A stretch of 64,000 bases of DNA, from positions 18,134 to 82,133 of the forward strand of contig CAYGKO010000001.1 of assembly GCA_964350735.1 (NCBI GenBank), in the 5' to 3' direction. Both the position numbers and the translations under genes were made by a program. The DNA comes from an uncultured Candidatus Saccharibacteria bacterium (GTDB taxonomy: Bacteria > Patescibacteriota > Minisyncoccia > Phycocordibacterales > UBA918). The stretch's first letter is position 1. Each line of letters starts with the position of its first letter. The notes beneath the pieces are model-generated. The model did no database searches. It was given only the letters and a program-made list of their open reading frames with translations, and was not told where the DNA came from. Shown piece by piece: positions 49,638-61,114 of this stretch.

Positions 49638-50030
49638 TTATCGTCGCAATCCGTCTCGAATCTCACGTAGTAGCTTCACCTCTTCTGAAGGCTCGACTGG
49701 CTTTTCTTCAGTCACTTCTTCTGGCTCAGAAGCTACTGATTTCGCTTTGTTGATCATCTTTACCATCATAAAGATGGCAAGAGCAACAATCACGAAGTCG
49801 AGCACTGACTGGATGAACATACCATAGCTCACCACCGCTTCTCCAACTGTAACTGACAAGCTAGCAAAACTCACACCACCGAGTAGTACCCCTACCAGCG
49901 GCATCACGATGTTATCAACCAGTGATGATACAATCTTCCCAAAGGCGGCACCGATCACTACCGCTACCGCCAGGTCAATGACATTGCCTTTAACCGCAAA
50001 CGCTTTGAACTCTTCAATAAATCCTTTCAT
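49638..50030 (-). CDS. mscL: Large-conductance mechanosensitive channel
   Basis: [34 protein letters not shown] is the MscL N-terminal signature. 130 aa with two TM helices. Confidence 0.85.
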
Positions 50031-50075
50031 ATATAATAATCTTACGTTTAATTAAATTTCGATCATTATAGCGGC

Positions 50076-51188
50076 TTAGTGATGGTGATGTCCGTGAGAC
50101 GATGAAACATGCCGCTCGTCAACTCCGTGGGTACCAAACCACCACGCCGCTAGAATGGTGGTACATGGCACTGCCAGCACCAGCCCAATACTCCCCACCA
50201 TAATCCGCACCAACTCAGCCGCCACCACTTCTTGATTTAGAATATGTGTGATCGGCGCTTCACTCCCCGAGAGGAAGAGTACGAGCGGTAATGAAATACC
50301 AACGTACGCCAAGGCAAGTGTATTTACGAGCGATCCCACATGGTCACGTCCCACCCGGATAGCCCGAGTATACAGCTCACTGATTGAAAAAGACTCATTA
50401 GCGGCTTTCAACTCCTGCACTACTGATGCTTGGGTGATTGACACATCATCAAGAATCCCCAAGATTCCAATAATGATCGAACCGAGCAATAAACCAGCAA
50501 AATCAAGTCGCCCGTCCGTGGCGAAGTTGAGATACACCGACGCATCAGACCCAAAGCCCGTCAGCCGCATTGAGAACACCCACCACCACGCTACCAAGCC
50601 AGTAAACAACACGGCTGCCATCGTCCCACCATACGCCAAGATCACGTGAGGGCGTACACCATGGGTCCCAAAGAGCACTACCGCTAAGATAACCGCTGCG
50701 ATCCCAATGCTGGTAAGAATCGGATTGTACCCAGCTAGCAGAAGCGGCACCAGAATAAACAAAATCGCTCCCACACTCACTCCCAGTGACAACAGCGCCC
50801 GCACTCCTTGTCTCCCCGCGAACCACACCAACAGCCCGATGAACAACAGTGCCAGCGACAGTAGCTCAGTCCGGCGGTCAATATCCTTTAATATGAATAG
50901 CTCATCACCATTGATCGTGACCTGACGATTGAGAAAGATCCGTTCGCCCGGCTGCAGTGGGATCAAATCATTCTCAAACTCCACTACATCCCCCGCGCGT
51001 GTCCCGTCAAAAATCTCTACTGTAATAGTTTGAGTTACCGCCTCAGCATTAGTGCCGGCAATCTCCCGTACCTCTTCACTCAGTATTTCTTTTACCTCAG
51101 CTCGCACTGTCTCAATGTCAGCATCTAAAATCTGAGCTGAAGCGCTAAACGGCAACAGTGCTAGCGCAACTAAAAAGAGCCATCGCAT
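50076..51188 (-). CDS. YibE/F-like polytopic membrane protein with His-rich C-terminus
   Basis: Signal peptide, then a periplasmic domain, 6-7 TM helices, and a C-terminal HGHHHH. Confidence 0.35.
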   Translation of the reverse strand: MRWLFLVALALLPFSASAQILDADIETVRAEVKEILSEEVREIAGTNAEAVTQTITVEIFDGTRAGDVVEFENDLIPLQPGERIFLNRQVTINGDELFILKDIDRRTELLSLALLFIGLLVWFAGRQGVRALLSLGVSVGAILFILVPLLLAGYNPILTSIGIAAVILAVVLFGTHGVRPHVILAYGGTMAAVLFTGLVAWWWVFSMRLTGFGSDASVYLNFATDGRLDFAGLLLGSIIIGILGILDDVSITQASVVQELKAANESFSISELYTRAIRVGRDHVGSLVNTLALAYVGISLPLVLFLSGSEAPITHILNQEVVAAELVRIMVGSIGLVLAVPCTTILAAWWFGTHGVDERHVSSSHGHHHH

Positions 51189-51282
51189 ACTAAAAAATAA
51201 ACCGCGCTAAATAAAAGCCCACTCCAGCAAAAAAGAGGAAGGTGAAAAACATCGTGACTTTTCGTGATTCGTCATCCATAGG

Positions 51283-51624
51283 CTATCGCAGTAAGTAAAT
51301 ACCGATAATGATAAAAAGTAAACCGACGATCTTTATTAGAGTCACCTGTGCACCCAAAAACGCTACTGAAAACACAAAAGAAGTAAGTACCCCGACCGAA
51401 ATCGCGATTGGGATTGCCAACTGTGTAGTCAGAAAACCGAAGTACAGCGCTCCCCCAAGGAGAGCATTAGCAACCAAAACTACTCCAAGTGGTAGCGGTT
51501 TAAAGGTGCTGATCAAGGCATTTGTGAAAGAAGTGCTTTCAGGACCAACTAATCTACCAAAGATAGAAATGCCAATATACCCGATAATCGACAAGCCGAT
51601 AAAATAAATCCAAGTCATATTCAT
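51283..51624 (-). CDS. Small 4-TM membrane protein (hypothetical)
   Basis: About 113 aa from MNMTWIYF. Highly hydrophobic. Confidence 0.3.
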   Translation of the reverse strand: MNMTWIYFIGLSIIGYIGISIFGRLVGPESTSFTNALISTFKPLPLGVVLVANALLGGALYFGFLTTQLAIPIAISVGVLTSFVFSVAFLGAQVTLIKIVGLLFIIIGIYLLR

Positions 51625-51737
51625 AAGTATACGTGAGCAGTGGCAGACAAAGAAGCGGCTGACATTTACTTTTGTGCAGAAAATAGGTATAGTTTTGCCC
51701 ACTGATGTTGATGGGCGATGCTGATCAACCAGGAAAT

Positions 51738-51813
51738 GGCGACTATAGTATAACGGTTAGTGCACCGGTTTGTGGTACCGGCAGTTCGGGTTCGATTCCC
51801 GGTAGTCGCCCCA
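51738..51813 (+). tRNA. tRNA-His (anticodon GTG) with encoded G-1 and 3' CCA
   Basis: Manual fold: G-1:C73 extra pair, 7-bp acceptor gcgacta/tagtcgc, D-arm gtat/gtgc, anticodon stem ccggt/accgg with loop ttGTGgt, T-arm cgggt-ttcgatt-cccgg (hand-derived loop boundaries, not cross-checked), CCA encoded. Confidence 0.85.
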
Positions 51814-53418
51814 AGTGAGAATAAGTTGAGCAAAACGTGCATTTCGTGTTGCTATATCTAGGTTTTCTTCCAGTTCGAGCCGCTTATATTCGGCTTCTAA
51901 TTCTGGGTACGCTTTTTCGATTGGAACGAACCAATCACTAGGAGAAATAAGGACTTTTTGGTCCTTTAGAGTAAAGTTCTGACCAAGTGCAGAAAAAATC
52001 TCTCGCTTCTCCTGGATACTCCCAAACATGAAGCTTGCTCGTGCGTGCCGTGCGAAGTTAAATGTACGCTCGCTGAGGTCTAGCCAGGTCTTTGCTCGAT
52101 TCTCTGTTGAGTTCAACTGCAACTTCAATTTGCCTAGCTGCAACTTCAATCCCTTCTTTTCTTTAATGAAGGTCTCATCGTCAATCAAGCTCCGGTAGCG
52201 CATCTGTGTCAGAGTGTCTAGCTCTGTCTGAGTCTTGTTGTACGCTTTTTGTTGTGACTCGTAGATTTTGGTGCGTTCTTGAATCTCGGTGTCATTCTTT
52301 TCATTGATGATTTCAAGTGCCCACTCCTGAAAGACTGGCAAGATAGTGTACCGCTCAAGTTCTACATCCACCTGACGCTCAAATTCATCCAAGGTGACTG
52401 GTTTTTGCTTACAGGTACACTTTCCATTCTCCCCTTTCTTTTTCTTGGTGCAGTGATAATAAGAATAGGTCTTAAGCTCATTCGTCTTCAAGACAATTTT
52501 TTGCTTAGCAGAATACGTACACGCTCCACCACATTCACCACAAACAACCATCCCTGTGAAGGATGATTCGTGTACTTGATTACGAGGCTTCCCTTTCCGC
52601 CCGAGGATTACCTGGGCTTTATCGTATTCATCAATGGTAATCATTGGCTTGTGGTTACCGTTTTCATACACTGTGCCCGACCAAGCAAACATCCCGGTAT
52701 AGAAGATGTTATTAAAGATTCGGTACAGTGAACTTTCAGCAATAGGACCATCACCTGACCGCTTGAACTTTGGCGTCCGGAAACCCCATTCTTCATTAGC
52801 AATCTTACGAATCTGCGGCACAGTATAGTTTCCAGACAGCAACATATCCCACATTTTGCGAACCATGTCGAAGCGTTCTTTGTCAGGGTAAATCTCATTC
52901 ACAATCTTTTCATTGAAGTAACCAAGTGGTGCCCGTGACGGCAGCCACCCTTTATCTGCCTTGCTCTCCATACCTCGACGACTATCCTTTGCTAAATCTC
53001 GAACGAACTGGTTTGCCATGGCTCCTTCTACGTTGAATAGCAATACATTGTCCTCAGGTAGATACACCTTGTCACGAGTAATAATCGTTTTAAGGACACC
53101 TGTCTGAAGCATCCAAGCTACCCGACCTTGGTCTACTGGATTCCGAAACAACCGATTCAAGTGCCAACAAATGATTCCATCAGCCTCACCTGCATCAATC
53201 CGGTCTAACATCTCATAAAATGTCTTTCTCACGTAGGGCTGCTTAGCTGACTTTGATTCAGGCATGATGTCTACTAACTTATGCTTCATCTCAGCAGACC
53301 TTGTCTTAATGAAATCAGTTTGGTCACCAATAGATTGCAGCTGATTGTCCGAAGACTCATCAGAAGATTTACGGGGGTATCCGAGTAATTTTAGTTTTAG
53401 TTCTTGCATTTTATTCAT
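51757..53418 (-). CDS. Large serine recombinase (phage-type integrase)
   Basis: N-terminal resolvase catalytic domain (YPRKSSDESSDNQLQSIGDQ with the catalytic Ser, LNRLFRN), then a recombinase domain and Cys-rich zinc ribbon (CGECGGAC...C.C). The 3' end overlaps tRNA-His by 57 nt. Confidence 0.8.
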   Translation of the reverse strand: MNKMQELKLKLLGYPRKSSDESSDNQLQSIGDQTDFIKTRSAEMKHKLVDIMPESKSAKQPYVRKTFYEMLDRIDAGEADGIICWHLNRLFRNPVDQGRVAWMLQTGVLKTIITRDKVYLPEDNVLLFNVEGAMANQFVRDLAKDSRRGMESKADKGWLPSRAPLGYFNEKIVNEIYPDKERFDMVRKMWDMLLSGNYTVPQIRKIANEEWGFRTPKFKRSGDGPIAESSLYRIFNNIFYTGMFAWSGTVYENGNHKPMITIDEYDKAQVILGRKGKPRNQVHESSFTGMVVCGECGGACTYSAKQKIVLKTNELKTYSYYHCTKKKKGENGKCTCKQKPVTLDEFERQVDVELERYTILPVFQEWALEIINEKNDTEIQERTKIYESQQKAYNKTQTELDTLTQMRYRSLIDDETFIKEKKGLKLQLGKLKLQLNSTENRAKTWLDLSERTFNFARHARASFMFGSIQEKREIFSALGQNFTLKDQKVLISPSDWFVPIEKAYPELEAEYKRLELEENLDIATRNARFAQLILTWGDYRESNPNCRYHKPVH

Positions 53419-53754: not shown

Positions 53755-54525
53755 TTAGTATCTGCGTAACACCCTATGTTGAATTGAAGTGTCAAAAAAG
53801 TCCTCAGCTGTAACCAAGCTATCCTTAAATACCTCATTAACGGCTCTGCACGCATCTTTAATTGCCCTTCCAGTTGGCTCCCTTAGGCCAGTGCTTTCTG
53901 CATCAATCCAAGTGGCTATTTGTGCTACATCAACCTGCTCATTCTTAGTCTTTTGGGTAACCATGTACTGAGTAACCAGGTCCATTAGTGATTCACTTTC
54001 TAAAGCAATTCGCACTGTATCTATTATTAAATTATGGTTCTCATAGGCAATCACAGCTGAGGACAAATCCACTGTAGCCTGATGCGACCCTGACCGACTT
54101 CTCTGGGTTCTTTTTGCTATCATTTGCCTCCCTGTATTAACGGCCTCCATGACCTCTGAAGGCACAGGAGTCCCATATCCTTTCTTGGCAATATTATATG
54201 GCTTCAGGTCTCCCCGGGCATTTTGTATCTGATTCCATGCTTCCTCGGTAGTTTGCGACAAGGTTCTAGTTGGCAGCAGGCGTTCGAGAGTCAGAGGATG
54301 CACGTTACTCCCTGCCTCTTCGGGGTCCAGTGAGGCCAATTCGTAGTATTTGTGTAATAGCTCTTTCAGGCCTCCCGGACGCAAATAAAAAATGTCTAGC
54401 TGTTCGGGTGACTCATCGGACTTCAGGACGTGGGCTGCCATATCACCATACAGATAATACAAATCAGTTAAAGCATTAAGAGCTTCTTTGTTTACTGCAT
54501 TATTGGTGGGGCGTCCGGGAGGCAT
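53755..54525 (-). CDS. Hypothetical protein
   Basis: 256 aa. No recognisable motif. Confidence 0.35.
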   Translation of the reverse strand: MPPGRPTNNAVNKEALNALTDLYYLYGDMAAHVLKSDESPEQLDIFYLRPGGLKELLHKYYELASLDPEEAGSNVHPLTLERLLPTRTLSQTTEEAWNQIQNARGDLKPYNIAKKGYGTPVPSEVMEAVNTGRQMIAKRTQRSRSGSHQATVDLSSAVIAYENHNLIIDTVRIALESESLMDLVTQYMVTQKTKNEQVDVAQIATWIDAESTGLREPTGRAIKDACRAVNEVFKDSLVTAEDFFDTSIQHRVLRRY

Positions 54526-55679
54526 AAAAAAATACTACCCAATAAAGTAGTAATTGACCAGACACAAATATCGCTAATTTACACACCCGGTTACCTCCCC
54601 TGTATCCCAACCCTGCTACCCTTGGTGAAGTATGTATACGTGGTGCATCCCTTTCTGCATTCCCTGCTACCCGGGTAAGCCATTTTCGCTATCGCATTCC
54701 TTTGTTTTATTTGTTATACGAGTGTTACCAAACCTGACTACCCGACTTGGTATATGTTTGTAGGGTAACAATTGATTCAATCCCCGACTTCTAGGACAAG
54801 AGAGGGCTAAAGCGGTCTGGGGATTGCCATGTACCACTTGTACCTATATGCCTGATTCCGTTTTCTCTCGGGACACACTTACTTCACCACTGTCAGCATC
54901 ACACTCTCTGTGTTTCTTTTCGCCAGCATCTCCTTATATCCATTACTTCCATAACAAGGGGTAGTCTCCTGACGTGCCGCGTGCATACATCGCCAATGAA
55001 GTTTAGGTAAACGATGTAGAGGCTTCTAAAGTCATCTGTCTTACGTCCTAGTGTGTCAGCTAACGAATAAATCACGAGCTAACTCCCAGGAGCCGGAATG
55101 CTGTCCGAGCCGCATCAGAGCATAGAATTCGAAGGTTTCACCGCAGCCAGGGAGCAGGCCTTCGATTCGCGTCCTACACCTCCCCAGTATTAGCTAGCAT
55201 CACTGCTACAGCAAACCGAGGCTTTATTAGCACTTCGGTCACTGCCCCATTGTCCGAAAACAAGGAGACTCTCTGCGTATTCAATTGGGATTTGGATATA
55301 GGATTTCGTCTAGGAGAGCTATCTACCTACTACTGTACTTGAGTACCACACGGTTCAGCAAGTATTTGAAATTACGCCACACAAATATAATTGCTCTAGT
55401 GACGCCATACTACAGTGACGTCTACTACCTTACTTATTAAAAATTACTGCCGGAAATTTTGACCCCCTACGACTATTTATACCAACTTCAATACCAAACA
55501 AAACTGTGAGCGCACCCGGTTTATAACAGTTTCCTTACTCCTGACACCCATATTGGAAACAGCTCCCCCTACTTCATTCCCGCAGAGGTTCTTGTAACTG
55601 GATTAGTGAAGAGCATTAATCATTCAGGCAACCACTCTTCGTGTTGTGATGCATACCAGCACTGCCACAAAAAAAAACT
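54526..55679. other. 1.15-kb ORF-free segment with strong C>G skew on the plus strand; candidate large structured ncRNA, likely minus-strand
   Basis: No ORF of 60 aa or more in any frame. Plus-strand C about 30% vs G about 13% in sampled stretches. Local hairpins include aaactgt...acagttt around gagcgcaccc. Confidence 0.3.
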
Positions 55680-55991
55680 ATGAGAACACCAGCAGACGTA
55701 TTAAATAACCGACCACGGAGTAACTACCAAGGTTCTGAAGCAACTAAAGCTATGGTTGCCGACCAGATTAGAGAACGATGGGGTGAGAAAGAAGCAAGTT
55801 CATTTGACCCGTATCACGATTGCATGACGGCAACCGCTTGGTTTGCAGCTGGGTTCAAAATCAAGAAGGGTGAAAAGGCATTACGGTCCATTACATTTCT
55901 TGAGAGTGAAGACAATGAGGGTAATATACACCGCAAAATTCGTAGAGGAGTTTCTTTATTCCACAAACGACAAGTGACTCCAACATCATAA
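55680..55991 (+). CDS. Hypothetical protein (weak ArdC-N/ssDNA-binding-like pattern)
   Basis: 103 aa. TATAWFAAGFKIKKGEKAL resembles the W..GY.V.KGEK motif of ArdC-N. Low confidence. Confidence 0.25.
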   Translation: MRTPADVLNNRPRSNYQGSEATKAMVADQIRERWGEKEASSFDPYHDCMTATAWFAAGFKIKKGEKALRSITFLESEDNEGNIHRKIRRGVSLFHKRQVTPTS

Positions 55992-55996
55992 TTACC

Positions 55997-56527
55997 ATGA
56001 ATACATTTATCCCAACCCAGGCCCCGCACCTCCAAATGCCAGATGTACGTGACAGCAGACACCCAGCTAGGGCAGAAATCCAGCGCTGCTTAGGTGAATA
56101 TGATTTGAAAGCAATCGTGGAAGAAGATTTGCAGACGTCAGCTTTAATGAAGCATTTACCAGGCTTAATATCTTTTGTCTGCACACTGAAGCTGAAGGAC
56201 CGAGTAATATCGCAGGGCTATGGCAGCAGTATCCTGAATCAAAACAATCGTTACGTGAATCGGGCGGTCCACTCTGCCATGAATTCAGCGGTTGCCGACA
56301 GTGTTATACGGGCCACAAAAGTACTTGGAACGCTACAAGATGAAGTAGAGGCTATGATTGGTTCTGCGATGCCTCCTGAGCCCATTACAGAGCCCCAGAA
56401 GAAGTATTTGCGAGAGCTAGCCATGCAACAGATGAACGATGAGGACGAGCGTGAACAATTCCTCTCTGAGCTACCTGAACTAACTAAACAGGAGGCTTCA
56501 ATGAAGATTCAACAGCTGAAGAGCTAG
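55997..56527 (+). CDS. Hypothetical protein
   Basis: 176 aa with an acidic C-terminus. No motif. Confidence 0.3.
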   Translation: MNTFIPTQAPHLQMPDVRDSRHPARAEIQRCLGEYDLKAIVEEDLQTSALMKHLPGLISFVCTLKLKDRVISQGYGSSILNQNNRYVNRAVHSAMNSAVADSVIRATKVLGTLQDEVEAMIGSAMPPEPITEPQKKYLRELAMQQMNDEDEREQFLSELPELTKQEASMKIQQLKS

Positions 56528-56690: not shown

Positions 56691-57749
56691 ATGTATAATG
56701 TACCCATGCAAACTGCCACAAAACGACAAACTGCCACCAAAAAAGCATCTGTTCGGAAGGATAAATCCAAGCAAACCGACAAGCCACGAGTTGTATCACT
56801 ATTTTCAGGGTCTGGAGGAATGGACCTTGGTTTCAAAGCATCTGGATTCAATATCCTATGGGCAAATGACGTTGACCATTGGGCATGTCAGACTTTCAAA
56901 AAAAACTTCGGGGACCACATAGTTGAAGGTAGTATTTGTGACATCAAAAACGAAGAAGTACCAGACTGCGACATTATTTTAGGAGGATTCCCCTGCCAAG
57001 ATTTTTCAATGATTTGGAAGCGTGCTGGTATTAAATCTGAGCGAGGAAATTTGTACAGGCACTTCGTGAGAATTGTGACTGACAAACGACCAAAGGTATT
57101 CATTGCTGAAAACGTGAAGGGTCTAATTAGCGCAAATGGTGGCAAGGCAGTAGAACAAATAGTAGCAGACTTCGCTAATGCTGGATATAAAGTATCAGTA
57201 AACAAGATTAATTTTGCTCACTATGGTGCACCCCAGTTACGCGAACGAGTGCTTATTATAGGAACGCGAAATGACTTACCAAAAGAATTTGAATTTCCAA
57301 AACCAACACATACTCCTGCTAATTTTGTTACTGCAAAAGTGGCTCTTGAAGGGGCTGAAAAGGCACTCTACAACAACGAACACCAAAATATTATGCCCTC
57401 AACTGTTGCAAAACTTCGCATTATTCCGCCAGGTGGCAACTTCACTGACATACCAAAAGATTCTCCTCACTATGTAAAGGGAATGATTTCACATGTGTAT
57501 CGTCGCTTGCATCCTGACAAACCATCCACTACTATCATTGCTGGGGGTGGAGGAGGTACTTGGGGCTATCACTATGCAGAACCACGACCACTTACAAATC
57601 GTGAACGCGCCCGTTTATTTGGATATCCTGATAACTTCCAATTTGAAGGCTCTATTGCTGAAGTGCGTAGACAGATTGGTAACTCGGTCCCCCCTGCTGG
57701 TATAAAGCCTATTGCTCGAGCAATAAGGCGATATCTACGAGAAGTATAA
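56691..57749 (+). CDS. DNA (cytosine-5)-methyltransferase
   Basis: Motif I FSGSGGMDLGF, motif IV GFPCQDFS (catalytic Cys) and motif VI ENV (FIAENVKGL). 352 aa. Confidence 0.85.
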   Translation: MYNVPMQTATKRQTATKKASVRKDKSKQTDKPRVVSLFSGSGGMDLGFKASGFNILWANDVDHWACQTFKKNFGDHIVEGSICDIKNEEVPDCDIILGGFPCQDFSMIWKRAGIKSERGNLYRHFVRIVTDKRPKVFIAENVKGLISANGGKAVEQIVADFANAGYKVSVNKINFAHYGAPQLRERVLIIGTRNDLPKEFEFPKPTHTPANFVTAKVALEGAEKALYNNEHQNIMPSTVAKLRIIPPGGNFTDIPKDSPHYVKGMISHVYRRLHPDKPSTTIIAGGGGGTWGYHYAEPRPLTNRERARLFGYPDNFQFEGSIAEVRRQIGNSVPPAGIKPIARAIRRYLREV

Positions 57750-57769
57750 AATTAAATTGTAATAAACGT

Positions 57770-58816
57770 ATGGAACTATTATTTTCTAATGTTAAACCAT
57801 GCGAGTACAACAACTCCTCATTCAGTGAGGCTTTTGAACTAGGGGTAGTAAATTCCGATGAAGTAAATATTGCTACAGGCTATGTTTCTGAAGAATCACT
57901 ACTAGAACTAAAGTCTATTCTTTCGTTTTATGCTGAAAATAATAAAGCAAAAAAGTGTAGCCTGGTAATCGGAATGCACGGAAGAGAAGGTTTTACTCGC
58001 CCTCAATATGAAGCAGCTGTAGAGCTTGGTAAATTTTTAGCCGATAATTCACTTGGGGGTGTATTTGTTTGCACAGCATTCCGTTTTCATGGAAAGACTT
58101 ACGTGTTTTACAAAAAAACTAGCCCTGTGTCAGCAATACTAGGCTCTTCTAATTTGAGTAATATTGTAGGCAACCGACAGTGGGAGGTTGATACAAAAAT
58201 TACCGAGAAAGAACCATTGAAGCAGCTGACTAGCTTACATACTGACCTGGCTAACAAAGCCTCTCGTAACATCCTGGAGATAGAAACACCCTCTTCTTTC
58301 ACTGAAACAAACGATTTACTTCAAGATAGAATTGGTGTCGACAAGGCTGATTCTGACTTATACGCACAAGCTGAGGACTCACTAACTGGTGTTGTGTTTG
58401 ACCTACCTCTTAAAGCAACTGAAAAAAGTAATTTGAACGTCTACTTTGGAAAAGGGCGTTTAGCAACAAAAACTGGAGCTATCCGACCGCGACACTGGTA
58501 CGAAGTAGAATTAATTGTACCTATTGATATCACCTCCTCTACGCTGTATCCTAAAAAAGGTTCGACCATTCACGTCTACACAGACGATGGCTGGTCCTTC
58601 AAGTGCAAAGCAGAAGGCCAAAACAGCAAGAACTTCCGTTCAGAAAATGACTTAAGAACACTTGGAAGATGGATTAAAGGACGCCTCGAACGAGCTGGAT
58701 GCTTACAGGTCGGCAAGCCAGTCACTGAAGAGGTGCTCGAATCTTACGGACGAAAAACTATTTCACTTAAACAAACAAAAGACCCGGAGCTTTGGCTGCT
58801 AGACTTTTCACGATAA
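57770..58816 (+). CDS. PLD-family nuclease (NgoFVII/BfiI-like putative restriction endonuclease) with C-terminal extra domain
   Basis: Single HKD-type motif FRFHGKTYVFYKK..ILGSSNLS in the N-terminal half. Immediately follows the C5-MTase. Confidence 0.55.
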   Translation: MELLFSNVKPCEYNNSSFSEAFELGVVNSDEVNIATGYVSEESLLELKSILSFYAENNKAKKCSLVIGMHGREGFTRPQYEAAVELGKFLADNSLGGVFVCTAFRFHGKTYVFYKKTSPVSAILGSSNLSNIVGNRQWEVDTKITEKEPLKQLTSLHTDLANKASRNILEIETPSSFTETNDLLQDRIGVDKADSDLYAQAEDSLTGVVFDLPLKATEKSNLNVYFGKGRLATKTGAIRPRHWYEVELIVPIDITSSTLYPKKGSTIHVYTDDGWSFKCKAEGQNSKNFRSENDLRTLGRWIKGRLERAGCLQVGKPVTEEVLESYGRKTISLKQTKDPELWLLDFSR

Positions 58817-58821
58817 ATAAT

Positions 58822-60696
58822 ATGGATTATCTAAATAACTACTTAAAGAGGGTTGAGAAAGACAAGCCAGGGTTAGCCCCGGCATTAAGACATAGTGCTG
58901 AACACTTTACAAAAGAACACATCGAAACTTTTGACTTCAATAGTCACAAATCTGGGCTTCTTTTTGGTCATGTACAAAGTGGTAAAACCGGGCAAATGCT
59001 TGCCATAGCGGCAGCGGCAGCTGACCATGGTTTCAAGTTTTTTATTTTAGTTACAACAGACAACGTTATCCTGCAAAAACAAACGCTGGAGCGGGCAAAG
59101 TCTGCTCTTGGGGGTTTTATGGCCGGCTTTAATGTGTTGGGAGAAATGGATGAGCAAGCTTTCTTGACACGTGGATTACAAATGCCGACTCTTCTGGTAC
59201 TGAAGAAGAACTCGAGTGTATTAAAAACTTGGGCAAACAACATTAGTGCAAACCCTACGTACAGGGATGAACCCCTTTTGATTCTCGATGATGAAGCAGA
59301 TGCATCTAGCCTTAACACAAAGGTCAATAAGGAGGAGCAGAGCACTATTAATATGCTTCTCGAGAAAATCAACAAGCAGGCTCCATCTAGTATGTACCTG
59401 CATATTACTGCCACTCCTCAGTCGCTAGTTCTACAAGTTGCTCAATCTGGATGGAAACCTCAATTCTCTTTCTACCTGCCCCCAGGTAAAGGATACCTCG
59501 GAGGAGACTTTTTCTATGGTGAAGATTCTCACTGCTTAGTTGAGACAGAAGATGGAGAGAGGGATGATTTAATTAACGCTGAACACGTTCCCCATGGCCT
59601 CCGTAAAGCAGCTCTGCATTTTTTAATTGCTGCTTCTGAGAGATTTTTAACCAAGAGCAGCGATGTGTGCACCATGCTTATTCATCCAGGCCTACGCATT
59701 AGTGAACATACCGTGGTCAGTAGTAAGATTGAAAGATTTCTGGAGGGAGTAAAAACTGATTTAATCGCAGGCTCTAAGACCCTAGAGTTTGATTTACGGG
59801 ATGCATGGGAAGAACTCTCTAAAACAAAAACCGACATTACCCCGTTTAATGACATCATGTCTTTTCTGGCGAGTGATATGCCCCCAGCAAACATCGTTGT
59901 ATTAAATTCGAAAGCACCGGATGGAACATCCTATGAAAAAGGGTTGAATATTGTCATTGGTGGCAACACACTAGGTCGTGGCGTTACTTTCCCTGGCTTA
60001 CACGTAGTATATTACTGTCGCAGTTCGAAGAAGCCACAAGCCGATACATATTGGCAGCACGCTCGAATATTCGGTTATGACAGAGACCAAGGTTTGTGCC
60101 GTATCTTCAGCCCTAGGCCACTACTCAAGCTCTTTAGGGAGCTAAATGACGCCAATAATGCCCTCTTCGAAACATTGGAACAGAAAGGACCTGGTGCAGT
60201 AAGCATACTAAGTCCCGCTGGAACACGTCCGACACGACCAAGCGTGGTTAAGAAGGATGATTTATTAGTAATTGCAGGTAACGTAAACTACTTCCCTACA
60301 TTCCCTACTGACTCAAATACTGCAAAAATTGATGCTGTTTTGGGTGCAAAAGATGACGAACGTGAAATATCACTCAATGAAGCAATTAAGATACTGGAGC
60401 TTGTTAAGGTCGAAAAAGGAGACCTGTGGCACCGTCATTCATTTCCAGACTGCATCGAGACACTGAAAAAAAGAACAAAGTTACCTTGTAAATTAATCGT
60501 TCGGACTGAGCGAAACATCGGTAAAGGAACCGGCACCCTACTCTCGCCAGTTGACCGAAAAATCGGCGCCGACCACAAAAATCAACTAGTGCTAACTATG
60601 TATCGACTTACTGGTGAGAAATGGGATGGTAAACCACTTTGGGTACCTAACATCAAATTCCCTGAAGAAACTTACTTTTACTTTCAGATGAAATAG
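58822..60696 (+). CDS. Z1-domain-like P-loop ATPase
   Basis: Walker A GHVQSGKTG and Walker B LLILDDEADASS. About 625 aa from MDYLNNYLK. This architecture is typical of restriction-associated Z1 proteins. Confidence 0.45.
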   Translation: MDYLNNYLKRVEKDKPGLAPALRHSAEHFTKEHIETFDFNSHKSGLLFGHVQSGKTGQMLAIAAAAADHGFKFFILVTTDNVILQKQTLERAKSALGGFMAGFNVLGEMDEQAFLTRGLQMPTLLVLKKNSSVLKTWANNISANPTYRDEPLLILDDEADASSLNTKVNKEEQSTINMLLEKINKQAPSSMYLHITATPQSLVLQVAQSGWKPQFSFYLPPGKGYLGGDFFYGEDSHCLVETEDGERDDLINAEHVPHGLRKAALHFLIAASERFLTKSSDVCTMLIHPGLRISEHTVVSSKIERFLEGVKTDLIAGSKTLEFDLRDAWEELSKTKTDITPFNDIMSFLASDMPPANIVVLNSKAPDGTSYEKGLNIVIGGNTLGRGVTFPGLHVVYYCRSSKKPQADTYWQHARIFGYDRDQGLCRIFSPRPLLKLFRELNDANNALFETLEQKGPGAVSILSPAGTRPTRPSVVKKDDLLVIAGNVNYFPTFPTDSNTAKIDAVLGAKDDEREISLNEAIKILELVKVEKGDLWHRHSFPDCIETLKKRTKLPCKLIVRTERNIGKGTGTLLSPVDRKIGADHKNQLVLTMYRLTGEKWDGKPLWVPNIKFPEETYFYFQMK

Positions 60697-60697
60697 G

Positions 60698-61114
60698 ATG
60701 TCTACTTGCGAAGAGGTAATCAGTGATGTAAGTATAAAAGACAACGTTCTCGGGTGGATGGCAGTAGAAATGCACTCTTCAGCTACACAAGAAATGTATT
60801 ACCCAGCAATAGCCACACTTTTTACTCTAATGGAGCAGACACTCAAGTGGGCAACAAATAGCGAGTCGGAGGATAAGTTGTTTGCAGTTATTAATTTAGC
60901 TAATAAGATGGAGCTAATTACAAACGAAGAACGTTTGTTTCTTCACGAACTTAGAATGAGTCGTAATAAATACGTGCACGCAAATTTTCATTCAGAGGCA
61001 TTCGAGTGGAGTGGTCTACTGCATCCTGTAAATGACTCATCTACAGCTGAAGCGTTGTACGACCATTATTCATTACCAACTCTTCAAATAATGTTGAAAT
61101 TATTAAGCTATTGA
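60698..61114 (+). CDS. Small helical protein with HEPN-like Rx4-6H motif
   Basis: 138 aa containing RMSRNKYVHAN (Rx4H). Translationally coupled to the Z1 gene, with a 1-nt gap. Confidence 0.3.
   Translation: MSTCEEVISDVSIKDNVLGWMAVEMHSSATQEMYYPAIATLFTLMEQTLKWATNSESEDKLFAVINLANKMELITNEERLFLHELRMSRNKYVHANFHSEAFEWSGLLHPVNDSSTAEALYDHYSLPTLQIMLKLLSY

What the first reader, a model, noticed from the sequence alone, without database searches (positions are those of the whole stretch)
54526..55679. 1.15-kb ORF-free, C-skewed segment inside the tRNA-His-associated island: candidate large structured ncRNA
Intergenic regions elsewhere in this dense genome are mostly under 300 bp. Here 1154 bp has no ORF of 60 aa or more in any frame and shows a pronounced C>G bias on the plus strand. 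A transcript from the minus strand would therefore be G-rich, as large structured RNAs and ribozymes often are. The segment sits between a serine-recombinase/cargo block and a defence cassette, next to a tRNA. This is the genomic context in which large ornate ncRNAs such as GOLLD, ROOL and HEARO-like RNAs are typically found. I looked for RNase P P4-like sequences, group II intron domain V, a tmRNA tRNA-like end and the B12 box, and found no convincing match, so the class is unknown.
Basis: partly seen in the sequence, partly recalled or inferred. Interest (0 to 1): 0.65.

Follow-up and report, generated by a model that had tools for sequence, protein, structure and literature searches.

The report
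New large structured RNA, mobile element
The 1.15-kb "empty" stretch encodes a previously undescribed, roughly 550-800-nucleotide, intricately folded RNA carried by small integrating mobile elements of Parcubacteria-like bacteria, and it sits exactly where sister elements carry a DNA primase-helicase gene.

Summary
The ORF-free gap is real and is the longest in the window. Its C-skew is ordinary. It is neither a pseudogene nor coding in any frame or genetic code. Its central ~540 nt (window 55324-54783, minus strand) is present in about 22 related loci and is better conserved than synonymous sites of the adjacent gene. It folds into about 25 helices plus at least one pseudoknot. Of 136 predicted pairs, 48 show compensatory changes (shuffles 26.7±3, 0/500; slid controls 3-10), and 97.7% of cells are paired. 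G·U outnumbers A·C 297:15, which fixes the strand. A homologue not used to build the model pairs at 94.8%. No Rfam family matches (4,227 models, E≤10) and no paper was found. The RNA lies between a shared divergent-promoter "head" and a 256-aa winged-helix protein plus recombinase operon. It occurs with serine or tyrosine recombinases and varied cargo. Three sister loci show a primase-helicase gene in the same slot, and a fourth, fragmentary locus matches only that gene; none has both. A less conserved 3' tail carries a one-orientation GGUAR repeat array and ends in a hairpin+U7 abutting the next ATG. Function is unknown. My leading guess, at low confidence, is that the RNA serves the element's replication or maintenance.

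The parts
54783..55324 (-). Structured RNA core (~542 nt): about 25 helices, including long-range closing helices H10 (55119-55114 with 54788-54783) and H12 (55089-55084 with 54796-54791)
   Evidence: RNAalifold on 14 homologues. 136 pairs, 48 with compensatory change, 97.7% paired, 0/500 shuffles reach the observed values. nhmmer hit 55350-54775, E=6e-189. Out-of-sample L036 is 94.8% paired. Core identity 0.71-0.98 against 0.38-0.74 at 4-fold sites of the neighbouring gene.
54986..55018 (-). Hairpin (55018-55012 with 54992-54986) whose loop supplies the 5' strand of helix H15 (55002-54992 with 54890-54881), forming a pseudoknot
   Evidence: Covariation scan. 91.8% paired with 3 covarying pairs. 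H15 has 5 covarying pairs. Coordinates.
55147..55187 (-). 8-bp helix (55187-55180 with 55154-55147) that competes with helices H3/H9 and crosses H8. It is either a second pseudoknot or an alternative conformer.
   Evidence: 100% paired in 14/14 with 3 covarying positions. H3 has one covarying pair of its own, 422-530. Unresolved.
55332..55337 (-). -10-like hexamer TACAGT. T, A and T at hexamer positions 1, 2 and 6 are invariant in 14/14 homologues. A variable 7-8 nt follows, then the invariant AGAUAGYUCU begins at ~55324. Putative promoter and 5' end.
   Evidence: Invariant columns T343, A344, T348. Alignment slice. This is an inference from sequence. No consensus sigma-70 promoter was detected.
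54526..54782 (-). 3' tail, specific to RNA-type loci and less conserved in sequence. It is G-clustered and carries a one-orientation GGUAR repeat array, including GGGTAGCAGG at 54663-54672 and 54612-54621 and GGGTAGTCAGG at 54733-54743 (given as plus-strand coordinates of the reverse complement). UGUUACCC at 54770-54763 is complementary to the repeats.
   Evidence: Tail HMM hits only RNA-type loci. GGTA[AG] occurs 4.7 times on the RNA strand against 0.65 in shuffles and 1.5 on the opposite strand. 5.5 GGG runs against 1.6 CCC runs. Repeats.
54526..54552 (-). Terminal hairpin (UACUACUU-UAUU-GGGUAGUA) plus U7, abutting the ATG of the 256-aa gene. It is either a weak intrinsic terminator at the RNA 3' end, or the -10 (TAGTAT) of a promoter for a leaderless 256-aa mRNA, or both.
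   Evidence: Hairpin plus a U5-U8 run in 14/14 homologues, dG -4 to -7 kcal/mol. The terminator scan missed it, which I attribute to its AU/GU-rich stem. The genome has few Shine-Dalgarno sites, 3/52.
55351..55479 (.). Variable spacer with direct repeats AGTGACGCCATACTAC x2 (55398-55428). Poorly conserved.
   Evidence: TRF. Alignment A3 columns ~200-360.
55480..55679 (.). Shared 'head': the upstream region of the divergent 103-aa gene. It is also conserved in primase-type loci, so it is not part of the RNA cassette.
   Evidence: Head HMM hits L017 (E=1e-23) and L029 (E=6e-10), which lack the RNA.
53755..54525 (-). 256-aa protein immediately downstream of the RNA. No Pfam, PHROG, NCBIfam or PADLOC family. 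N-terminal helical domain plus a C-terminal winged-helix-like domain.
   Evidence: AF2 pLDDT 85. CadC and GlnR DNA-binding domains, TM 0.60-0.65, E-values not significant. Mosaic domain pattern.
51757..53418 (-). Large serine recombinase. Its 3' end overlaps tRNA-His (51739-51813, + strand).
   Evidence: Pfam Resolvase, Recombinase and Zn_ribbon_recom. tRNA.
55680..56527 (+). Conserved divergent genes of 103 aa (55680-55991) and 176 aa (55997-56527). Function unknown. Only weak hits: ArdC-N at E=0.08 and DUF3072 at E=3e-4.
   Evidence: Syntenic in all loci.
56691..61114 (+). [not shown]
   Evidence: Pfam. PADLOC MTase_II 3e-115, REase_II 5e-99, Helicase_II 1e-178.

Best explanation
SHOWN: the gap contains a gene for a large, pseudoknotted, structured RNA. 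The core is window 55324-54783 on the minus strand, and the RNA would be ~800 nt if it runs to the hairpin+U7 at 54526. It belongs to a family with no match in Rfam. It is carried by ~9-10-kb site-specific integrative elements of Parcubacteria-like (CPR) bacteria. INFERRED from sequence: it is transcribed rightward from a -10-like element at 55337-55332, as the first unit of the arm that continues with the 256-aa winged-helix protein and the recombinase. SHOWN: the cassette [RNA core + GGUAR-repeat tail] occupies the same slot, between the shared 'head' and the 256-aa gene, where sister elements encode a primase-helicase. No locus has both. INFERRED and speculative (my probability ~0.3): the RNA is the element's replication or maintenance module. 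It would be a non-orthologous replacement of the protein initiator, in which a folded ~0.55-kb transcript continues into a G-clustered tail next to A/T-rich tracts and provides or licenses a primer in cis after excision. This is analogous in logic to the ~550-nt RNA II preprimer of ColE1 plasmids. The confidence given below is for the whole statement. For 'it is a new structured RNA gene on the minus strand' alone I would give ~0.95.
For: RNA gene:
- 159 predicted pairs, 50 with compensatory changes.
- Core of 136 pairs: 97.7% paired, 48 pairs and 144 cells with changes on both sides, against shuffles of 26.7±3.0 and 43.9±5.9 (0/500) and slid controls of 3-10 pairs and 35-42% paired.
- Two further helices, one making a pseudoknot.
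- Held-out L036 is 94.8% paired against 37-39% for slid controls.
- G·U to A·C ratio of 297:15.
- Core identity exceeds 4-fold-site identity of the neighbouring gene in 11/11 comparisons.
- Not coding.

Family and novelty:
- Rfam gives nothing in the gap at E≤10, nothing at gathering threshold over the window, and nothing at the RNA position at E≤1 in six homologous loci.
- No match in phage or plasmid collections or in viral contigs.
- No paper found.

Cassette swap:
- The core HMM hits 22 distinct loci and gives no hit in L029, L016, L017 or L024.
- L029, L016 and L017 carry a primase-helicase gene directly upstream of the 256-aa homologue (PHROG DNA primase E=2e-54; tblastn). L024 is a fragment with only a weak match.
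- The head is shared by both types, while the core and tail are RNA-type only.

Other points:
- Independent of recombinase type: the module occurs with Ser or Tyr recombinases.
- Tail composition and repeats.
Against: - No transcription data were available.
- The 5' and 3' ends are inferred. No consensus sigma-70 promoter or canonical terminator was found.
- The MFE z-score is not significant on either strand (+0.8).

Against the replication idea specifically:
- The swap separates two protein clades (256-aa identity 41-49% against 51% or more), so it may be a single evolutionary event.
- All loci were found through the 256-aa gene, so ascertainment is biased.
- Many integrative islands do not replicate at all.
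- Long stretches of the core are invariant, such as the 30-mer CCGCUUUAGCCCUCUCUUGUCCUAGAAGUC. From my own knowledge, that is unlike antisense-controlled primer RNAs, whose loops diversify, and more like ribozymes, RNP scaffolds or self-assembling RNAs.
- No origin features such as DnaA boxes or regularly phased iterons were identified.
Confidence: 0.4

Rival explanations
1. A trans-acting 'ornate' RNA of the GOLLD/ROOL/OLE type. It would be a compact or self-assembling RNA (or an RNP scaffold) carried by the element as a payload, for example in phage-host or element-host conflict, with no role in replication. The slot shared with the primase-helicase would then be just a mosaic hot spot.
For: Size and complexity: about 25 helices, a pseudoknot and long invariant stretches. 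It lives on a mobile element next to a tRNA with defence cargo, which is the context reported for GOLLD and ROOL (PMC5737381, PMC12286853). It has its own putative promoter and terminal hairpin. The GGUAR repeat array could be a protein-binding, sponge-like region.
Against: There is no sequence or structure match to GOLLD, ROOL, OLE, HEARO or raiA models. This reading does not explain the strict position upstream of the 256-aa gene in 22/22 loci, although ascertainment bias applies. Oligomerisation cannot be tested here.
Confidence: 0.3
2. A giant cis-regulatory leader. The RNA would be the 5' untranslated region of the 256-aa/recombinase operon, and alternative pairings would decide whether the hairpin+U7 terminates transcription, so controlling excision or integration.
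For: It is on the same strand as, and directly upstream of, the 256-aa gene in all loci. A hairpin+U run abuts the ATG in 14/14 homologues. There are mutually exclusive, covarying pairings. UGUUACCC is complementary to several GGGUARCA repeats, and a GGGUAG motif recurs inside the terminal hairpin.
Against: A core of ~540 nt and ~25 helices is far beyond known leaders. The conserved TAGTAT-N7-ATG fits an own promoter for a leaderless mRNA in a genome where only 3/52 genes have a Shine-Dalgarno site, although the TAnnnT enrichment near starts is weak (19 against 14.5±3.1). In primase-type loci the same operon functions without this RNA.
Confidence: 0.15
3. A DNA-level element rather than an RNA: a replication origin, a single-strand origin or oriT, or a recombination site whose folded single-stranded DNA is the functional form.
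For: Direct repeats and A/T-rich tracts in the tail. The neighbouring protein has a winged-helix-like domain. The 103-aa neighbour has a sub-threshold ArdC-N (ssDNA-binding) hit.
Against: The constraint is on one strand, with 15.7% G·U pairs. The fold has ~25 nested helices, long-range closures over ~330 nt and a pseudoknot. From my own knowledge, that is unprecedented for ssDNA origins or attC-like sites, which are 60-300 nt. The GGUAR repeats persist where the winged-helix domain is swapped.
Confidence: 0.04
4. A decayed or recoded protein gene: a pseudogene, or an ORF read with a reassigned stop codon.
For: In L029, L016 and L017 a 685-aa primase-helicase gene fills the same slot.
Against: TAA, TAG and TGA all occur in all six frames of every homologue. 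Substitutions show no 3-periodicity. 156 of 178 indels are not multiples of 3. tblastn of the primase-helicase finds nothing in any gap. Conservation exceeds synonymous sites, which neutral decay cannot produce.
Confidence: 0.01

Closest known systems
GOLLD and ROOL RNAs (large ornate bacterial ncRNAs; Rfam; PMC5737381, PMC12286853)
   Same: An RNA of more than 500 nt with many helices supported by covariation. It is borne on mobile elements, often near tRNA genes. Function unknown. Found by comparative genomics in uncultivated or metagenomic sequence.
   Different: No detectable sequence or structure homology (Rfam covariance models). The host is a CPR/Parcubacteria-like lineage, and the carrier is a small integrative element rather than a prophage (no hits in viral or phage collections). 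It has a fixed syntenic slot upstream of a 256-aa gene and a GGUAR-repeat tail. Oligomeric assembly was not tested.
ColE1 RNA II replication preprimer (my own knowledge; background in PMC11012335)
   Same: A structured transcript of ~550 nt encoded on a mobile replicon that takes the place of a protein initiator. Here the RNA cassette sits where sister elements have a primase-helicase, and it is followed by a G-clustered tail and A/T-rich tracts.
   Different: No homology. No antisense RNA I-like partner was identified. The long invariant stretches and pseudoknots are unlike RNA II. The carrier is an integrated element, not a plasmid. Priming and R-loop formation are untested.
HEARO/IscB omega-RNA and IS110 bridge RNAs (structured RNAs encoded just upstream of the mobile-element protein they work with; my own knowledge)
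   Same: A structured RNA immediately 5' of, and co-oriented with, a conserved element protein. It is co-inherited with that protein's N-terminal domain (L028: core 98%, N-domain 81%).
   Different: Two to three times larger. No IscB, TnpB or DEDD recombinase is present. It occurs with either serine or tyrosine recombinases, so it is not a recombinase-specific guide. Primase-type loci have the protein without the RNA.
Tycheposons, VEIMEs and PICI/P4-like satellites (element level; bioRxiv 10.1101/2020.12.28.424599, PMC9618062)
   Same: Small tRNA-targeting integrative elements with a tyrosine or large serine recombinase, a primase/helicase replication module and variable (often defence) cargo. 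The primase-type sister loci fit this plan.
   Different: The host lineage differs. In the RNA-type elements the primase-helicase is replaced by a structured RNA. Neither paper mentions any ncRNA. No capsid or packaging genes were seen.
LOOT RNA (Rfam RF03000)
   Same: It occurs on the same element family, downstream of the 176-182-aa gene in L003, L021, L026 (just below the gathering score), L032 and L029. Part of this element family had therefore been sampled before.
   Different: It is a separate ~120-nt motif at a different position and on the other strand. It is present in both RNA-type and primase-type loci and absent from this window.

Membership tests
GOLLD / ROOL / OLE / HEARO / raiA (known large bacterial ncRNAs in Rfam) | Match to the family covariance model (conserved sequence plus secondary structure) | tested here: not met
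   cmscan of 54300-55900 on both strands against all 4,227 Rfam 15 families at E≤10 gave only two chance hits at the 103-aa gene start (PreQ1 E=2.1, snoTBR6 E=7.6). Six homologous loci at E≤1 gave nothing at the RNA position.
Group I / group II introns, RNase P RNA, tmRNA, rRNA fragments | Match to the Rfam models (for example group II domain V, RNase P P4, the tRNA-like end of tmRNA) | tested here: not met
   No hit at the gathering threshold or at E≤10. ARAGORN finds no tmRNA. No interrupted host gene flanks the RNA.
Structured non-coding RNA (generic) | Base pairs maintained by compensatory substitutions beyond phylogenetic background | tested here: met
   48/136 pairs and 144 cells changed on both sides, against 26.7±3.0 and 43.9±5.9 in 500 shuffles (0/500) and 3-10 pairs in slid controls. 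Held-out L036 is 94.8% paired.
Structured non-coding RNA (generic) | Strand-specific constraint (G·U tolerated, A·C not) | tested here: met
   297 G·U cells against 15 A·C cells. 97.7% canonical against 82.8% when mirrored onto the other strand.
Structured non-coding RNA (generic) | Not protein-coding | tested here: met
   All stop types occur in all frames of every homologue, there is no 3-periodicity, and 156/178 indels are not multiples of 3.
Structured non-coding RNA (generic) | Transcribed as a discrete RNA with defined ends | not testable with these tools
   No RNA-seq was available. There are only sequence inferences: an invariant TAnnnT 7-8 nt before the conserved core and a terminal hairpin+U7.
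ColE1-type RNA-primed origin | A preprimer RNA that forms a persistent RNA:DNA hybrid at the origin and is processed to a primer, under antisense RNA copy control | not testable with these tools
   Only circumstantial evidence: the cassette swap with the primase-helicase and the G-clustered tail. I did not search systematically for an antisense partner. No consensus promoter was found on either strand of the gap.
Riboswitch or leader-type cis-regulator | Mutually exclusive terminator and antiterminator pairings directly upstream of the regulated ORF | tested here: inconclusive
   A hairpin+U run abuts the ATG in 14/14 homologues and there are competing covarying helices. However, no covariation links the core to the terminator hairpin, and the same sequence also reads as a -10 for a leaderless mRNA.

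The most novel reading that the evidence does not exclude
A new class of large structured RNA that functionally replaces a protein primase-helicase as the replication-initiation module of an integrative mobile element. That would be an RNA-based replicon function in CPR bacteria, outside the ColE1 plasmid paradigm. It may work together with the N-terminal domain of the adjacent 256-aa protein and the GGUAR repeat array.
Probability: 0.25. Interest if true: 0.9.

Novelty: new member of a known kind. Interest (0 to 1): 0.8.

Why it matters
Bacterial structured RNAs longer than 500 nt, outside rRNA and the classical ribozymes, form a very short list: OLE, GOLLD, ROOL, HEARO and a few others. Each has opened new biology, including RNA-guided nucleases and RNA-only nanocages. 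This is a well-supported new family with about 54 covarying pairs, a pseudoknot and out-of-sample validation. It comes from the poorly understood CPR/Parcubacteria lineage, and it arrives with an unusually informative natural experiment. The same element backbone carries either this RNA or a primase-helicase, and it swaps recombinase type and cargo around it. That gives a concrete, testable functional hypothesis, which most 'ornate' RNAs lacked when they were discovered. It also gives a compact target (~540 nt) for chemical probing and cryo-EM.

Tried and rejected
1. **Pseudogene or recoded ORF.** Rejected by stop-codon census, periodicity and indel lengths, and by tblastn with the primase-helicase.
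2. **Known RNA family.** Rfam at gathering and permissive thresholds on the window and on six homologous loci found only tRNA and LOOT, both elsewhere.
3. **Phage or plasmid origin.** blastn against the phage and plasmid collections found no match. The viral-contig protein scan and the invariant 25-mer scan both found nothing.
4. **Thermodynamic stability test.** The MFE z-score is +0.8 on both strands, which is uninformative. The single-sequence MFE shares only 31 of 135 consensus pairs.
5. **Consensus sigma-70 promoter and intrinsic terminator scans.** Nothing in the gap. No promoter is conserved at a common column at 8/12 or better.
6. **"Leaderless genome" generalisation.** TAnnnT near starts is only weakly enriched (19 against 14.5±3.1), so I treat it as tentative.
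7. **att repeats flanking the island.** Only 7-8-nt chance matches. I expected this for a serine recombinase.
9. **GGGTAGCAGG repeats as binding sites of the winged-helix domain.** Disfavoured, because the repeats persist in loci where that domain is replaced.
10. **Literature.** No paper describes this RNA. The supplement of the LOOT paper is not held.
Full report
**Observation.** Window 54526-55679 has no ORF of 60 aa or more; the longest is 58 aa and the longest stop-to-stop stretch is 92 aa. It is the longest ORF-free stretch in the window, 1154 nt against 335 nt for the next, with a median of ~46 nt. The plus-strand C>G bias is real (GC skew -0.18) but ordinary for this window: about 8% of equal-sized windows are at least as skewed, and the median is -0.11. 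It comes mostly from the flanks of the gap and not from the part that turns out to be structured. The gap lies between two divergently oriented genes, a 256-aa ORF on the minus strand (53755-54525) and a 103-aa ORF on the plus strand (55680-55991). Both sit inside a ~9.4-kb island. The island consists of tRNA-His (51739-51813), a large serine recombinase whose 3' end overlaps the tRNA (51757-53418), the 73-aa and 256-aa ORFs, the gap, the 103-aa and 176-aa ORFs, and a type II restriction-modification cassette.

**Not a known RNA and not coding.** Rfam 15 (4,227 models) finds nothing in the gap at the gathering thresholds. At E≤10 on both strands there are only two chance hits at the start of the 103-aa gene. 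There is no tmRNA. The phage and plasmid collections hold no similar DNA.

**Homologues.** The 256-aa protein has 24 homologues at 41-100% identity. Fetching their loci showed that the whole gap is conserved at 64-91% DNA identity, even where the adjacent protein is only ~45-60% identical. In every homologue all three stop codons occur in all six frames. Substitutions show no 3-periodicity, and 156 of 178 indels are not multiples of three. This excludes a gene, a recoded gene and a recent pseudogene. Identity of the central core to the window copy is 0.71-0.98. It exceeds identity at four-fold degenerate sites of the neighbouring gene (0.38-0.74) in all 11 comparisons, so the core is under purifying selection.

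**Structure.** RNAalifold on 14 non-redundant homologues (alignment A3, oriented as the window's minus strand) predicts 159 pairs, 50 of them with compensatory double changes.
- The core (A3 columns 387-1000, window 55324-54783) has 136 pairs in 25 helices and 97.7% of cells are paired.
- 48 pairs and 144 cells are changed on both sides. Column shuffles give 26.7±3.0 pairs and 43.9±5.9 cells (0 of 500 reach the observed values). Slid-partner controls give 3-10 pairs and 35-42% pairing.
- A covariation scan and a targeted count add two helices. One is a hairpin (55018-55012 with 54992-54986) whose loop forms helix H15 with 54890-54881, which makes a pseudoknot. The other is an 8-bp helix (55187-55180 with 55154-55147; 100% paired, three covarying positions). 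It crosses H8 and competes with H3/H9, so it is either a second pseudoknot or an alternative conformer.
- L036 is a homologue 75% identical in the core that was not used to derive the model. It pairs at 94.8% of 135 positions (slid controls 37-39%), and 15 of its pairs are changed on both sides relative to the window.
- The strand is fixed by 297 G·U cells against 15 A·C cells, and by 97.7% canonical pairing against 82.8% when the structure is mirrored.
- The single-sequence MFE is not unusually stable (z = +0.8 on either strand). The evidence is therefore comparative, not thermodynamic.

**Ends.** Upstream of the core, all 14 sequences keep T, A and T at positions 1, 2 and 6 of a hexamer (TACAGT in the window, 55337-55332). 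A variable 7-8 nt follows, and then the invariant AGAUAGYUCU begins at ~55324. I read this as a -10 element and a transcription start. No consensus sigma-70 promoter was detected, so this is an inference.

Downstream of the core lies a ~255-nt tail (54782-54526) that is much less conserved (0.47-0.90). It is consistently G-clustered on the RNA strand, with 5.5 GGG runs against 1.6 CCC runs. It carries a one-orientation array of GGUAR motifs: 4.7 copies against 0.65 in shuffles and 1.5 on the other strand, recurring at fixed distances from the ATG. UGUUACCC, just 3' of the core, is complementary to them.

The tail ends in a weak hairpin plus U5-U8 that abuts the ATG of the 256-aa gene in 14 of 14 homologues. 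This could be the RNA's terminator. Alternatively, because only 3 of 52 long ORFs in the window have a Shine-Dalgarno motif, its 3' half (TAGTAT-N7-ATG) could be the -10 of a promoter for a leaderless mRNA. The genome-wide enrichment of such hexamers is weak. Both readings remain open.

**Context and the cassette swap.** A profile of the core finds exactly one copy in each of 22 distinct loci. It finds none (E≤10) in L029, L016, L017, L024 or L018. Directly upstream of the 256-aa homologue, L029, L016 and L017 carry a primase-helicase gene instead (PF22763 plus AAA_25; PHROG DNA primase E=2e-54; tblastn). L024 is a fragment with only a weak primase-helicase match, and L018 has too little upstream sequence to classify. 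That protein has no translated similarity to any gap.

A profile of the ~200-260 nt next to the 103-aa gene (the "head") hits both types (L017 E=1e-23, L029 E=6e-10). The core and tail are found only in RNA-type loci. The exchangeable unit is therefore [RNA core + tail] against [primase-helicase gene], between a shared divergent-promoter head and the 256-aa gene.

The RNA-type backbone occurs with large serine recombinases (the window, L003, L005, L008, L025, L036 and others) or with tyrosine integrases (L026, L028, L032, L034). It carries varied cargo: restriction-modification genes, an OLD-like ATPase, NUDIX/NADAR genes, methyltransferases and others.

The 256-aa protein is itself mosaic. 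Its N-terminal helical domain is retained everywhere. Its C-terminal domain is winged-helix-like (AF2 pLDDT 85; CadC and GlnR DNA-binding domains at TM 0.60-0.65 with non-significant E-values). That domain is replaced by an unrelated one in four of the five tyrosine-integrase loci. In L028 the RNA core (98%) and the N-domain (81%) travel together while the C-domain (15%) and the recombinase are swapped. The GGUAR array persists across that swap, so it is unlikely to be the winged-helix domain's binding site.

One homologous locus comes from a Candidatus Parcubacteria MAG. Others come from ocean (TARA) and other metagenomes.

**What it most likely is and does.** It is shown that this is a gene for a large, pseudoknotted, strand-specific structured RNA of a family absent from Rfam 15 and from the literature I could search. 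Its function is not shown. The only functional evidence is positional. The RNA is the first unit of the rightward arm, and it occupies the slot of the replication initiator of sister elements, which otherwise resemble tycheposon, VEIME or PICI-type integrative elements (bioRxiv 10.1101/2020.12.28.424599; PMC9618062). Non-orthologous replacement at a fixed slot in mosaic elements often preserves function. I therefore rank a replication or maintenance role first: a folded transcript running into a G-clustered tail that provides or licenses a primer, with logic like ColE1 RNA II. I give this a probability of only ~0.3.

Several points count against it. The swap may be a single event between two clades. 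The loci were all found through the 256-aa gene. Many islands do not replicate. The long invariant stretches of the core resemble ribozymes, RNP scaffolds or self-assembling RNAs more than primer RNAs.

The rivals are:
- a GOLLD/ROOL-like trans-acting "ornate" RNA (~0.3);
- a giant cis-regulatory leader of the 256-aa/recombinase operon (~0.15);
- a DNA-level element (~0.04);
- a coding remnant (~0.01, effectively refuted).

**Comparison and novelty.** In kind it belongs with the large ornate bacterial ncRNAs carried on mobile elements. It is a member of none of the known families, because the covariance-model tests were not met. I rate it a new member (a new family) of a known kind. It would be upgraded if the primase-replacement reading proves true.

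**Limits.** There are no transcription data, the ends are inferred, the alignment has ~9 independent lineages, and the metagenome and genome scans were single-shot and protein-baited.

Noticed in passing
L003:2408-2514, L021:3093-3218, L026:2844-2970, L032:2893-3007, L029:868-996 (all on the locus minus strand): The known Rfam motif LOOT RNA (RF03000, ~120 nt) lies just downstream of the 176-182-aa gene in five related elements, of both RNA type and primase type. The L026 copy scores just below the gathering threshold. The motif is absent from this window. LOOT therefore appears to be a component of this family of integrative elements.
   Followed up: partly
window 51739-51813 (+) and 51757-53418 (-): The last ~19 codons of the large serine recombinase ORF are encoded antisense to the 3' part of tRNA-His. 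The integration junction therefore seems to lie inside the tRNA gene. The same tRNA overlap recurs in L003, L005/L007, L025, L029 and L030. No long att direct repeat was found.
   Followed up: partly
window 53755-54525 (-) and homologues: The 256-aa protein is a two-domain mosaic. The N-terminal helical domain is conserved in all loci. The C-terminal winged-helix-like domain is replaced by an unrelated sequence (11-17% identity) in four of five loci with a tyrosine integrase. The recombination breakpoint therefore lies inside the gene.
   Followed up: partly
whole window (52 ORFs of 150 aa or more): Only 3 of 52 long ORFs have a GGAG/GAGG/AGGA motif upstream. Several have TATAAT-like hexamers 6-12 nt before the ATG, which suggests initiation that is largely without Shine-Dalgarno sites and possibly leaderless. 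The enrichment is weak (19 genes against 14.5±3.1 in shuffles).
   Followed up: partly
window 55398-55428: A tandem direct repeat AGTGACGCCATACTAC x2, containing GACGTCAC-like cores, lies in the variable spacer between the shared head and the RNA promoter. A TGACGTCACTG motif is conserved at this place in about half of the homologues. It may be a regulator binding site.
   Followed up: no
window 55590-55679: A conserved hairpin (GAAGAG...CUCUUC) and an A9 run lie immediately upstream of the 103-aa ATG. The weak PreQ1 and snoTBR6 Rfam hits here (E=2-8) are chance matches to the A-run.
   Followed up: partly
L029:2353-2902: In the primase-type locus about 550 nt between the shared head and the primase-helicase start is also ORF-poor. 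It contains short direct repeats (ATGAAATGCAAAATGTAAA x2 at 2811-2853) and could be that element's origin or regulatory region.
   Followed up: no
L030 compared with window 49638-53418: L030 comes from a different sample. It carries a related element (256-aa protein 59% identical) inserted at the same host site: tRNA, then the YibE_F and MscL genes. This indicates a conserved integration site across related hosts.
   Followed up: no
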